Positions 37,366-39,322 of a stretch of 64,000 nucleotides of DNA are shown here, piece after piece (positions within the stretch are counted from its first letter, which is position 1; each line of letters begins with the position of its first letter). The notes under the pieces were generated by a model that saw only the letters and a program-made list of their open reading frames with translations, ran no database searches and had not been told where the DNA came from. The DNA comes from Nannocystis sp. (GTDB lineage Bacteria; Myxococcota_A; Polyangia; Nannocystales; Nannocystaceae). The stretch lies in NCBI RefSeq assembly GCF_016717175.1, contig NZ_JADKFZ010000004.1; one strand, given 5' to 3'. Both the position numbers and the translations under genes were made by a program.

Positions 37366-38405
37366 GGGAGCAGCTCCACGCGGGCGTCGGGGCCGGGGGC
37401 GAGGGTGTCGACGGCGTGGACGCCGGGGACGGCGGCGAGGCGGGCGGCGAGCTCGGCGGCAAGATCGGGGCGGCACAGGACCTTGACGTGGGGGCCGGCG
37501 TCGCTGGTGACGTAGGCCTCGAGGCCGGCGCGGCGGGCGGCCCAGACCTCGTGGATGGCGGCGAGGGTGGTGCCGTTCCAGTAGATGAGCGGCGGCACGG
37601 TGGCGAGCATGCAGGCGTGCATCTTGAAGCAGCTGTGCTCCATCACGGCGCCGAGGGCCGCGAGGTCGCGATCGGCGAGGGCTCGTTCGCCGCGCTCGAG
37701 GTCGGCCTCGGAGGTGGCGACCCAGGCGGGGTAGTAGGGCGAGGTGTCGGCGCTGCGCTGCATGCCGTCGGTGGAGCCGATCGGCTTGGGGCCCTTCGCG
37801 GTGTGGACGACGAGCAGGCGCAGGTCCCAGTGGTCGGCGGGGAACAGCGGGCGGGCGCGGCAGTCGGCGCCGTCGGCTCGCTCGCCGCGACCGAGGCGGA
37901 CGAAGCCGCCCCACAGCGAGCGGGCGGCGGAGCCGGAGCCGCGGCGGGCCAGCGCCGAGAGGGCGCCGCGATCGAGGTCGAGCTCGAAGGCGGCGGCGGC
38001 GGCGAGGGTGAGGGCGGCGAAGCCGGAGGCGGAGGAGGCGAGGCCGGCGGCGGTCGGGAGGTGGTTGGTGGAGTCGACGGCGCAGGGCGGGCGCGGGCCG
38101 GGGTTGGCCGAGCGCCAGACGCGGTCGAGGTGGCGGGCGACCTTGGCGGCGGCGGCGGGGTCGCTGTGGCCGTCGAGCTGGAAGCTGTCGCGCTCGCCCG
38201 GGCGGACGGTGGTCTCGCTGCGCAGGCGCTCGAGGGTGAGGGACAGCGAGCCGACGGCGGGGAGGTTCTGATCGGGGTCGCCGGGGCGCTTTCCCCAGTA
38301 CTTGATCAGGGCGATGTTGGTGTGCGCGACGGCGCGGGCGGCTCTCATCGGGGCTCCGGGGGGGGGGGGGGGGGGGGGGGGGGGGGGGGGGGGGACGGGG
38401 ATCAT
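37362..38405 (-). CDS. mvaD: Diphosphomevalonate (mevalonate-5-pyrophosphate) decarboxylase; the 5' end contains a poly-C/poly-Pro tract
   Basis: AHTNIALIKYWGKRPGD...LPTAAGLASSASGFAALTLAAAAAF are MVD/GHMP motifs. The ATG at 38405 overlaps the mevalonate-kinase stop (ATGA) and reads M-I-P-V-(P)12-G-A-P-M-RAARAV. An alternative start at the internal ATG (38348) would put the poly-G tract in the leader. Confidence 0.75.
   Translation of the reverse strand: MIPVPPPPPPPPPPPPGAPMRAARAVAHTNIALIKYWGKRPGDPDQNLPAVGSLSLTLERLRSETTVRPGERDSFQLDGHSDPAAAAKVARHLDRVWRSANPGPRPPCAVDSTNHLPTAAGLASSASGFAALTLAAAAAFELDLDRGALSALARRGSGSAARSLWGGFVRLGRGERADGADCRARPLFPADHWDLRLLVVHTAKGPKPIGSTDGMQRSADTSPYYPAWVATSEADLERGERALADRDLAALGAVMEHSCFKMHACMLATVPPLIYWNGTTLAAIHEVWAARRAGLEAYVTSDAGPHVKVLCRPDLAAELAARLAAVPGVHAVDTLAPGPDARVELLP
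38358..38394. repeat. Homopolymeric G tract of 37 nt (poly-C on the coding strand)
   Basis: cgggggggggggggggggggggggggggggggggggggggacgggg is read directly from the sequence. It lies between the two candidate start codons of the decarboxylase gene. Confidence 0.9.
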
Positions 38406-39322
38406 GGTTGCACCTCGACGAGCAGGGGCTCGTAGGTCGCGAAGGCGGCGAGCAGGGCGCTCGGGTCGGCGGGCGGGAGGACCAGCAAGGTGCCGCCGCC
38501 GCCGGCGCCGGTGAGCTTGGCCCCGAGGGCGCCCGCCGCGAGGGCGCTGGCTTGCAGGGCGTCGAGGGCGGGGGAGGAGACGTCGATGGCGCCGAGGAGG
38601 TGGTGGGCGATCGTCATGAGCTCGCCCAGGGCGGTGAGGTCCTGGTGGGCGAGGGCGCGGATGCTGGCCTCGGCGGCGGCCCCGAGGGCGGAGAGGGTCG
38701 GGGTGATCACGCTGCGCTGGCGCTCGAGGCGGGCGCGGACCTTGGCGACCTGGATCGCGGTGGAGCGGGGGATGTTGCTCGGGATGAGCAGGAGCGGGAG
38801 CGGGCCGGCGAGCGGGACGGGCTCGGCCCCGGCGCCGCGGACGAAGCGGAGCACGCCGCCCTGGGCGGCGACGCGGCTGTCGAGGCCGGAGGGTTCGCCG
38901 TGGAACACGCGCTCGCCGGCGAGGGAGGCGTCGACGAGCTCGTCGAGGTCGGCGTGTTCGCCGAGGACGAGGCGGGCGAGGGCGACGGTCAGGGCGGCGG
39001 AGCTGCCGAGGCCGGCGCGGGCGGGCAGGCAGGTGGTGCCGGTGATCGCCCAGCCGGTGACGGGGCCGTCGCAGTGGGTGAGGACCTCGAGGCAGGCGCG
39101 GGCGACCGGGTGCTCGCTGTCGGCGCGCAGCTCGAGCTCGAGTTGCCACTGCGGGATCGAGAGGGAGATCGGGAGCTTCGCGTGCTCGCGGGGGACGGCC
39201 TGCAAGCACACGCCCTGTGGGAGGCCGGCGGCGACGGCGGGGTGGCCGTAGACGACGGAGTGTTCGCCCAGCAAGATGACCTTGCCGCAGGCCTCGGCGC
39301 GGGGGTGAAGCGGGATCGGCAT
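38402..39322 (-). CDS. mvk: Mevalonate kinase (GHMP family)
   Basis: ACGKVILLGEHSVVYG is the N-terminal MK motif. ARAGLGSSAALTVALARLVL is the GHMP ATP-binding motif. The C-terminus reads KLTGAGGGGTLLVL. Confidence 0.8.
   Translation of the reverse strand: MPIPLHPRAEACGKVILLGEHSVVYGHPAVAAGLPQGVCLQAVPREHAKLPISLSIPQWQLELELRADSEHPVARACLEVLTHCDGPVTGWAITGTTCLPARAGLGSSAALTVALARLVLGEHADLDELVDASLAGERVFHGEPSGLDSRVAAQGGVLRFVRGAGAEPVPLAGPLPLLLIPSNIPRSTAIQVAKVRARLERQRSVITPTLSALGAAAEASIRALAHQDLTALGELMTIAHHLLGAIDVSSPALDALQASALAAGALGAKLTGAGGGGTLLVLPPADPSALLAAFATYEPLLVEVQP

What the first reader, a model, noticed from the sequence alone, without database searches (positions are those of the whole stretch)
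38340..38410. 37-nt homopolymeric G tract at the start of the diphosphomevalonate decarboxylase gene (poly-proline or slipped-strand switch, or an assembly artefact)
A run of 37 G lies between the ATG that overlaps the mevalonate-kinase stop (ATGA at 38402-38405) and an internal ATG (38348). Read from the coupled start it encodes M-I-P-V-(P)12-G-A-P-M. A 12-Pro run would need EF-P and is very unusual. Any +/-1 slippage in the tract would frameshift an essential isoprenoid enzyme, which is the signature of a contingency locus. It could equally be a homopolymer sequencing or assembly artefact.
Basis: seen in the sequence. Interest (0 to 1): 0.65.

Follow-up and report, generated by a model that had tools for sequence, protein, structure and literature searches.

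The report
Unverified poly-G run between two genes
The 37-base G run is really in the sequence, but it lies in a non-coding, strain-variable gap just upstream of the true start of the decarboxylase gene, occurs only in this one probably Nanopore-derived metagenome genome, and is more likely a consensus error than a biological switch.

Summary
In detail: there are exactly 37 G at 38358-38394 (C37 on the sense strand), and the next longest homopolymer in the window is 7. The interpretation mostly fails. The run lies in a 53-nt spacer between the mevalonate kinase (MK) stop and the diphosphomevalonate decarboxylase (MVD) start. MVD starts at ATG 38348, 5 nt after a GGAG, and that start gives the N-terminus seen in almost all of the 120 best homologues. 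None of them has poly-Pro, and NCBI annotates the 328-aa form. Relatives about 91% identical have no spacer (ATGA overlap). Ten short-read contigs spanning the junction, from strains 96-99% identical, carry spacers of 76-115 nt made of a REP-like palindrome. Two projects give an identical 82-nt allele in the window's nearest strains. None has a homopolymer. The window is a Nannocystis MAG, probably from an R9-Nanopore/CANU study. Best reading: a non-coding spacer whose homopolymer form is an unverified, probably artefactual consensus (0.55). A real strain-specific poly-C allele remains possible (0.38). A poly-proline MVD or a frameshift switch is unlikely (0.04). Raw reads or PCR would settle it.

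The parts
38358..38394 (-). Homopolymer: C37 on the operon's sense strand, G37 on the + strand
38349..38401 (-). 53-nt intercistronic spacer between the MK stop and the MVD start (85% C). It corresponds to the 76-115-nt REP-derived spacers of the sister strains
38354..38357 (-). Shine-Dalgarno GGAG, 5 nt upstream of the MVD ATG. It is identical in every sister contig that includes it
37362..38348 (-). Diphosphomevalonate decarboxylase CDS (328 aa plus stop), identical to NCBI MBK9754442.1
38402..39322 (-). Mevalonate kinase CDS (306 aa plus stop), identical to NCBI MBK9754443.1
38403..38405 (-). Vestigial ATG overlapping the MK stop (ATGA). It is the actual MVD start in the ~91%-identical relatives L172 and L173. 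As assembled it is in frame with MVD through the run
38413..38416 (-). GAGG, 7 nt upstream of the vestigial ATG. This is the ancestral MVD ribosome-binding site inside the MK 3' end, conserved in L172 and L173
35056..37365 (-). Downstream operon context: fused phosphomevalonate kinase / HMG-CoA reductase ORF (769 aa), whose start overlaps the MVD stop

Best explanation
The run is not part of the decarboxylase gene. It fills a non-coding spacer between mevalonate kinase and diphosphomevalonate decarboxylase in a mevalonate/carotenoid operon of a Nannocystis MAG. The spacer is a recent insertion. In relatives about 91% identical, the MK stop and the MVD start overlap as ATGA. In the clade that is 96% or more identical, copies of a genome-wide REP-like palindrome (CCTGTCC-N4-GGMCAG) were inserted after that ATGA, and MVD acquired a second start with its own GGAG. 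In every short-read assembly of those strains the spacer is ordinary complex sequence of 76-115 nt. Only this MAG shows a perfect 37-nt homopolymer there, and the MAG is probably a CANU assembly of R9 Nanopore flip-flop reads. I therefore think the homopolymer, or at least its length, is most likely a consensus or basecalling error at a strain-heterogeneous repeat array that short-read polishing could not repair. Shown here: the position, the true start, the origin of the spacer, and the absence of the run in sister strains. Inferred: the sequencing platform of this particular MAG and the artefact itself. I could not show how such an error would arise.
For: Position and start: GGAG-5nt-ATG at 38357-38346; the Pfam domain starts at residue 8 of the short form; homologue N-termini and the lack of poly-Pro; NCBI's 328-aa annotation, with consecutive accessions for MK and MVD. 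Spacer origin: L172 and L173 have a direct ATGA overlap; the REP-like element gives 34 hits at about 20 sites against 1.9 hits expected, and degenerate copies make up the sister spacers. Absence elsewhere: ten short-read contigs span the junction (L001, L162-L166, L168-L170, L174) and two more reach it partly (L167, L171). They carry four alleles, and none has a homopolymer longer than 5 nt. The window's nearest strains (L001 has an identical MK; L174's partial MK matches at 149/150 residues) carry an identical 82-nt spacer in two different projects, although their MVD genes differ from each other by 17 nt. Flanks are about 99.4% identical to L001 with no indels outside the spacer. [quoted passage not shown] The same laboratory states that short-read polishing was needed to correct indels from homopolymer regions in Nanopore assemblies (PMC9262707 abstract). 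Loose base rate: 100 of 120 G/C runs of 30 nt or more in public viral contigs lie within 150 nt of a locus end. Known real poly-G/C tracts are mostly 9-10 nt, with 13-15 rare (PMC6321876).
Against: I have no reads, so the artefact is not demonstrated. The usual R9 homopolymer error is an indel of one to a few bases in an existing run, not the creation of a perfect 37-mer. My crude simulation of a majority consensus over noisy reads from mixed alleles never gave a C-run longer than 9 nt. The rest of the region is clean, with no indels against L001 in 2.4 kb, so polishing worked nearby. If the MAG is from that study, polishing used four-colour HiSeq X, which makes the common dark-cycle poly-G artefact unlikely. 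The link between the window's own MAG and that study is inferred from the accession series and the shared taxon; 915480 was not found in the truncated table. REP arrays in this genome do contain C6-C7 linkers, which could seed a real expansion.
Confidence: 0.55

Rival explanations
1. The run is real. It would be a strain-specific poly-C allele of the hypervariable spacer, with a true length near but probably not exactly 37. It is non-coding and tolerated because MVD has its own ribosome-binding site. Being hypermutable, its length would decide what happens to ribosomes that start at the vestigial ATG. At 3n the short uORF ends on the TGA overlapping the MVD ATG, as in the sister strains. At 3n+1 MVD gains an in-frame 19-residue extension containing 12 prolines. 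At 3n+2 translation reads out of frame for more than 1100 codons.
For: The run is perfect and internal to a 915-kb contig with clean flanks. The only specific artefact mechanism I could model, a majority consensus over mixed alleles, did not reproduce it, and I have no demonstrated alternative. The site tolerates any sequence: four alleles of 76-115 nt exist. REP arrays in this genome carry C6-C7 linkers that could seed slippage. The vestigial ATG keeps the ancestral GAGG-7nt site. The three frame outcomes were computed. All four sister alleles have a first-ATG-to-TGA distance divisible by 3 (81, 84, 87, 120 nt), which suggests the frame of the upstream ORF matters.
Against: No run is present in any short-read contig covering the junction, including the nearest strains, whose 82-nt allele is stable across 1.7% MVD divergence. 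At 37 nt it is two to four times longer than characterised bacterial poly-G/C tracts. As assembled it is 3n+1, unlike all the sister alleles. G37 on the template strand of an operon for isoprenoid synthesis should be costly, because such runs can form G-quadruplexes and are unstable (general knowledge; PMC2211496 abstract). The probable platform is unreliable for homopolymers.
Confidence: 0.38
2. MVD is translated from the ATG at 38405 with a 12-proline N-terminus that depends on EF-P, and a +/-1 slippage frameshifts and switches off the enzyme, as in a classical translational contingency locus.
For: The upstream ATG is in frame with MVD as assembled and has a plausible GAGG site plus stop-start coupling.
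Against: A conserved GGAG-5nt-ATG lies downstream of the run. The full Pfam domain is present from the short start. No poly-Pro occurs in the 120 homologues. The upstream ATG is out of frame with MVD in all four sister alleles. NCBI annotates the short form. The gene is a housekeeping enzyme in a free-living bacterium, not the surface or restriction-modification type of gene typical of contingency loci. The run is far longer than known switches.
Confidence: 0.04
3. A dark-cycle poly-G artefact of two-colour Illumina chemistry (NextSeq or NovaSeq) was carried into the contig by assembly or polishing.
For: Long poly-G runs are common at contig ends in public short-read assemblies.
Against: The probable source study used four-colour HiSeq X. 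The run is internal and joins two correctly ordered flanks. Reads entering from the two sides would give G on opposite strands and could not be joined through one G run (my reasoning from the sequence).
Confidence: 0.03

Closest known systems
Simple-sequence-repeat contingency loci (poly-G/C tracts of Campylobacter, Neisseria, Haemophilus, Bordetella)
   Same: A G/C homopolymer next to the 5' end of a gene. If real, its length would change which reading frame upstream-initiating ribosomes follow.
   Different: The run is outside the conserved ORF, so the enzyme is not frameshifted. It is 37 nt long, against the usual 9-10 nt with 13-15 rare (PMC6321876). There is no evidence of length polymorphism, because the sister strains lack the run altogether. 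The gene is a housekeeping operon gene of a free-living myxobacterium. No promoter-like element lies nearby.
REP/BIME-type repetitive extragenic palindromes
   Same: The spacer of the sister strains is built from a short imperfect palindrome that is dispersed across the window in arrays with variable copy number.
   Different: The consensus here (CCTGTCC-N4-GGACAG) is its own sequence, and Rfam has no match in the window. Some copies sit in frame inside a coding region. The window's own spacer retains at most a GTCCC remnant.
Homopolymer errors in Nanopore R9.4.1 consensus sequences
   Same: The probable platform is the same, and homopolymers are its acknowledged weak point (PMC9262707 abstract; pipeline).
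   Different: Typical errors shorten or lengthen existing runs by a few bases. Replacing about 66 nt of complex sequence with a perfect 37-mer is atypical, and my simple simulation did not reproduce it.
Translational coupling through overlapping stop/start codons (ATGA) and termination-reinitiation
   Same: The ancestral MK/MVD junction is an ATGA overlap. In the sister strains a 27-40-codon ORF starts on one ATGA and ends on a second ATGA at the MVD start.
   Different: As assembled, the window's run puts the upstream ATG in frame with MVD instead of ending at the ATGA.

Membership tests
Translational SSR contingency locus | The repeat lies inside the functional reading frame, so +/-1 unit truncates the protein | tested here: not met
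   The run is upstream of the conserved GGAG-5nt-ATG start. The short form holds the full Pfam domain, and homologues start there.
Translational SSR contingency locus | The same tract varies in length among strains, clones or reads | tested here: not met
   The sister-strain contigs that cover the junction have no tract at all. Read-level heterogeneity cannot be tested with these tools.
Translational SSR contingency locus | Tract length within the range shown to switch (about 7-15 for G/C) | tested here: not met
   37 nt, against a peak of 9-10 with 13-15 rare (PMC6321876).
Transcriptional phase variation (tract in a promoter spacer) | The tract lies between or next to -35 and -10 elements | tested here: not met
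   No sigma-70-like site was found in 37800-39000. A 37-nt run cannot fit a 16-18-nt spacer. The site is intercistronic within an operon. Non-sigma-70 promoters are not covered by the scan.
Poly-proline (EF-P-dependent) protein segment | The Pro run is part of the translated, conserved protein | tested here: not met
   No run of 5 or more Pro occurs in the 120 best homologues. The upstream ATG is out of frame in the sister alleles.
REP-like intergenic palindromic repeat | A dispersed, multi-copy, imperfect palindrome in intergenic arrays | tested here: met
   This holds for the element that builds the sister spacers: 34 hits at about 20 sites against 1.9 hits expected, with arrays at 30081-30278 and 31500-31650. 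The window's own spacer no longer contains a recognisable unit.
Sequencing/assembly homopolymer artefact | Absent from independent assemblies of the same or nearest strains | tested here: met
   L001 and L174 have MK (partial in L174) identical or 149/150 to the window's, and both carry the same 82-nt complex spacer. Eight further spanning contigs also lack the run. None is provably the very same strain.
Sequencing/assembly homopolymer artefact | Produced on a platform or pipeline prone to such errors | tested here: inconclusive
   The sister MAG JADJNN is tied to the R9-Nanopore/CANU study by its contig length. The window's own MAG is linked only by its accession series and taxon. The mixed-allele consensus simulation did not yield long runs.
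Sequencing/assembly homopolymer artefact | Raw reads do not support the run | not testable with these tools
   No read data are available.
Rho-utilisation (rut) site | A C-rich, G-poor, unstructured RNA stretch that stands out from its surroundings | tested here: inconclusive
   The window's spacer is the strongest C>G peak in the window (C 0.78, G 0.08). However, the whole operon's sense strand is C-rich, and the sister spacers are not the extreme in their loci.

The most novel reading that the evidence does not exclude
The run is real, and it would be one of the longest G/C homopolymers known in a bacterial chromosome. It sits inside an operon for the lower mevalonate pathway of a free-living, non-pathogenic myxobacterium. 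There it acts as a hypermutable three-state intercistronic switch. Depending on length modulo 3, ribosomes from the still-active ancestral start either terminate and reinitiate at the MVD ATG, or make an EF-P-dependent poly-proline-tagged MVD, or read out of frame across MVD and the PMK-HMGR gene and occlude their translation. This would give stochastic cell-to-cell tuning of isoprenoid flux.
Probability: 0.08. Interest if true: 0.65.

Novelty: not a real feature. Interest (0 to 1): 0.15.

Why it matters
As it stands, the finding matters mainly as a caution. A striking homopolymer at the start of an essential gene in a long-read MAG turns out to lie outside the gene, and it is contradicted by every short-read assembly of sister strains that covers the junction. 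It should not be used to infer poly-proline proteins or phase variation. If reads confirmed it, it would extend slippage-based variation to a housekeeping operon of an environmental bacterium, and to a tract length well beyond those characterised so far. The by-products are probably more useful. They are a REP-like palindrome family in Nannocystis that inserts between, and even in frame within, genes, and a recently created intercistronic spacer in which a short upstream ORF keeps its frame across four alleles.

Tried and rejected
1. Consensus collapse. I simulated noisy long reads from the four real spacer alleles, aligned them and took a majority consensus. The longest C-run was 9 nt or less in 40 of 40 trials, so this simple mechanism does not explain a 37-mer.

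2. Chimeric strain join at the run. The window against L001 has 1/921 mismatches in MK and 13/987 in MVD (Fisher p = 0.002). L001 against L174 shows the same asymmetry (1/435 and 17/987) although they share an identical spacer. The asymmetry is therefore natural and does not discriminate.

3. Rho-loading (rut) site. The whole sense strand is C-rich, and the sister spacers are not exceptional.

4. Dark-cycle poly-G. This is unlikely because the probable study used HiSeq X, and because of strand logic.

5. Regulatory RNA. Rfam has no match in the window. A stem between the MK 3' end and the MVD start appears in three of the four folds (window, L162, L001). It is only marginal in the window (z = -2.4), not significant in L162 or L001, and absent in L169.

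6. Promoter-spacer tract. There are no sigma-70-like sites.

7. Fetching the window's own contig and the sister Nanopore MAG. Exact look-ups of P0001 and P0003 found no contig on record.

8. The DNA fold of G37/C37 is uninformative, because the tool does not model quadruplexes.

Full report
**Observation.** The + strand carries exactly 37 consecutive G at 38358-38394. This is C37 on the - strand, which is the sense strand of the local operon. The MK stop overlaps an ATG at 38405-38402, an internal ATG lies at 38348-38346, and the frame from 38405 reads M-I-P-V-P12-G-A-P-M into MVD. The window is 72.4% G+C, yet its next longest homopolymer is 7 nt. The chance expectation for a run of 37 nt or more is about 2e-10. 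No G/C run of 10 nt or more exists in 1.09 Mb of related loci.

**Gene context.** Pfam defines a - strand operon:
- an FMN-dependent IDI2-like gene;
- mevalonate kinase (MK), 39322-38402;
- diphosphomevalonate decarboxylase (MVD), 38348-37362;
- a fused phosphomevalonate kinase / HMG-CoA reductase ORF, 37365-35056;
- a squalene/phytoene synthase;
- an amine-oxidase-type desaturase.

The closest named genomes are Nannocystaceae. The MVD protein is identical to NCBI MBK9754442.1, 'MAG: Nannocystis sp.', on a 915,480-bp contig, and MK is the adjacent accession MBK9754443.1.

**Where MVD starts.** A GGAG lies immediately after the run (38357-38354), 5 nt before ATG 38348. This GGAGCCCCGATGAGAGCC block is identical in every sister-strain contig that includes it. 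The Pfam MVD-like_N model starts at residue 8 of the 328-aa form. Most of the 60 best homologues begin exactly 10 residues before the NIALxKYWGK motif, as this form does, and none of the 120 best has a run of five or more prolines. NCBI's annotation also uses the 328-aa form. The run is therefore intercistronic, and slippage in it cannot frameshift MVD translated from its own start.

**Origin of the spacer.** Several Nannocystaceae (L007, L008, L085) and the ~91%-identical relatives L172 and L173 have an MK stop and MVD start that overlap as ATGA. L172 even begins MVD with ATGATCCCC (M-I-P-A-R...), the same nine bases that survive at the MK stop in the window. Contigs from strains 96-99% identical all have an insertion between that ATGA and a second start. 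Ten of these contigs span the junction (L001, L162-L166, L168-L170, L174) and two reach it partly (L167, L171). They come from several ENA, JGI and Logan short-read assemblies. The spacers are 76, 79, 82 or 115 nt long, 54-57% C, and made of units such as CACCTGTCCCTCCGGCCAGCC.

The unit belongs to a REP-like palindrome family (CCTGTCC-N4-GGACAG). It gives 34 hits at about 20 sites in the window against 1.9 hits expected. Arrays lie at 30081-30278 and 31500-31650, and two in-frame copies lie inside the PMK coding region. None of these spacers contains a homopolymer longer than 5 nt.

**Nearest strains.** L001 has an MK protein identical to the window's, and its flanks are about 99.4% identical with no indels. 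L174 comes from a different project, and its partial MK matches at 149 of 150 residues. Both carry exactly the same 82-nt spacer, although their MVD genes differ from each other by 17 nt. The window shares the left anchor ATGATCCCC and the right anchor GGAGCCCCG with them, but has GT plus C37 in place of about 66 nt of complex sequence.

**Source of the sequence.** P0003, a 98%-identical MVD (MBK7824416.1), sits on a 1,069,417-bp contig. That length equals the largest contig of MAG EsbW_18-Q3-R4-48_MAXAC.145 (JADJNN, g__Nannocystis) in Supplementary Data of Singleton et al. 2021, PMC8012365. That study used PromethION R9 flow cells, Guppy 2.2.3 flip-flop basecalling, CANU, Racon, two rounds of Medaka, and a final Racon round with PCR-free HiSeq X reads.

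The window's MAG has the same NCBI organism name and taxid, and a later accession in the same series. I infer that it is a sister MAG of that study. The held copy of the table is truncated, and 915480 was not found in it. The same laboratory states that short-read polishing was needed to correct indels from homopolymer regions in Nanopore assemblies (PMC9262707 abstract). From general knowledge of such polishers, short reads correct small errors but are clipped at a wrong segment of tens of bases, so a bad 37-nt stretch could survive polishing.

**Weighing artefact against real.**

For an artefact:
- The run is absent from all independent assemblies that cover the junction, including the nearest strains.
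- The replacement is radical within a sub-clade whose spacer allele is otherwise stable.
- The probable platform is weak on homopolymers.
- The length is two to four times that of characterised poly-G/C tracts. Those peak at 9-10 nt with 13-15 rare (PMC6321876), and the prokaryote-wide survey found poly-C and poly-G runs generally under-represented (PMC2831843).
- In public viral contigs, 100 of 120 G/C runs of 30 nt or more lie within 150 nt of a locus end, which is what artefacts look like. This is only a loose base rate.

Against an artefact:
- The flanks are clean.
- R9 errors usually change existing runs by a few bases.
- HiSeq X chemistry does not produce dark-cycle poly-G.
- My simulation of a majority consensus over mixed alleles never produced a C-run longer than 9 nt.
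- The flank SNP asymmetry that might have indicated a chimeric join also exists between two short-read contigs that share one spacer.
- REP arrays here contain C6-C7 linkers that could seed a true expansion.

I put the artefact, or at least an unreliable length, at 0.55 and a real non-coding poly-C allele at 0.38.

**What a real run would do.** The vestigial ATG keeps the ancestral GAGG-7nt ribosome-binding site that serves MVD in L172 and L173, so it probably still initiates translation. In all four sister alleles the distance from this ATG to the TGA overlapping the MVD ATG is a multiple of three (81, 84, 87, 120 nt; from the gene coordinates). A Pro-rich ORF of 27-40 codons therefore ends exactly on the MVD start. 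The alleles are not independent, so this is suggestive only.

For the window, run length sets three outcomes:
- 3n recreates that arrangement, with an 18-21-codon ORF.
- 3n+1, which includes 37, fuses a 19-residue extension containing P12 to MVD.
- 3n+2 reads out of frame for more than 1100 codons.

An error of one base in the assembled length would change the class, so even if the run is real, the in-frame poly-proline reading rests on a number this platform cannot deliver.

**Other checks.**
- Rfam has no match in the window.
- No sigma-70-like promoter or intrinsic terminator lies within 600 nt of the run.
- C-richness is a property of the whole sense strand, so a specific Rho-loading role is not supported.
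- A stem between the MK 3' end and the MVD start encloses the spacer in three of four folds (window, L162, L001). It is marginal in the window and not significant in L162 or L001.

**Verdict.** The most likely status is an unverified homopolymer in a long-read MAG consensus at a REP-derived, strain-hypervariable intercistronic spacer. Reads or a PCR product from the source sample would decide it.

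Noticed in passing
window 30081-30278, 31500-31650, 16546-16590, 37103-37174, 41826-41843, 53492-53509 and others: A REP-like imperfect palindrome, CCTGTCC-N4-GGACAG (stem CTGTCC/GGACAG), gives 34 hits at about 20 sites against 1.9 hits expected. It forms tandem arrays of 33-36-nt units, some with C6-C7 linkers. Rfam has no match in the window. Degenerate copies build the MK-MVD spacer of the sister strains.
   Followed up: partly
window 37103-37174 (- strand, inside the PMK part of ORF 37365-35056); L162 3675-3800: Two copies of the same palindrome lie in frame inside the phosphomevalonate kinase coding region and encode a repeated ...DHLSSRTGP... 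peptide with a 54-nt period. L162 has three copies, and one was detected in L168 and in the part of L001 that is covered. A REP-like element is therefore expanding within a CDS.
   Followed up: partly
window 35056-37365 (- strand): Phosphomevalonate kinase (GHMP kinase domains) and HMG-CoA reductase are fused in one 769-aa ORF. The same long ORF is called in the short-read contigs L162 and L163, so the fusion is not an assembly frameshift.
   Followed up: partly
L001 1268-1357; L162 2421-2504; L168 453-539; L169 2250-2372: In all four sister spacer alleles, a Pro-rich ORF of 27-40 codons starts on the ATGA at the MK stop and ends on the ATGA at the MVD start (distances 87, 81, 84 and 120 nt, all divisible by 3). 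This could be a termination-reinitiation relay, or selection against out-of-frame read-through.
   Followed up: partly
window 39323-39404; L162 1492-1503; L169 1273-1332: The IDI2-MK spacer also varies in length among the near-identical strains: 82 nt in the window and L001, 60 nt in L169 and 12 nt in L162.
   Followed up: no
whole window: There is strong strand asymmetry. The + strand has G 40.7% against C 31.8%, and the sense strand of the mevalonate operon averages C minus G of about +0.19.
   Followed up: no
window 58695-58856, 57190-57226, 20606-21058, 43374-43464: Other tandem repeats are present: a 49-nt unit x3.3 and a 14-nt unit x2.6, both containing GACATGTCCC (a second palindrome-like motif); 96- and 189-nt repeats in what looks like coding sequence; and a 12-nt unit x7.6 overlapping the 5' end of the ATP-grasp ORF.
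   Followed up: no
L174 1-290 and 1984-2040: In the short-read contig L174, MK is cut to its last 150 codons and is preceded by an unrelated - strand ORF. The last 57 nt match window 37451-37395 rather than continuing collinearly. This is either a rearranged strain or a chimeric short-read contig.
   Followed up: no
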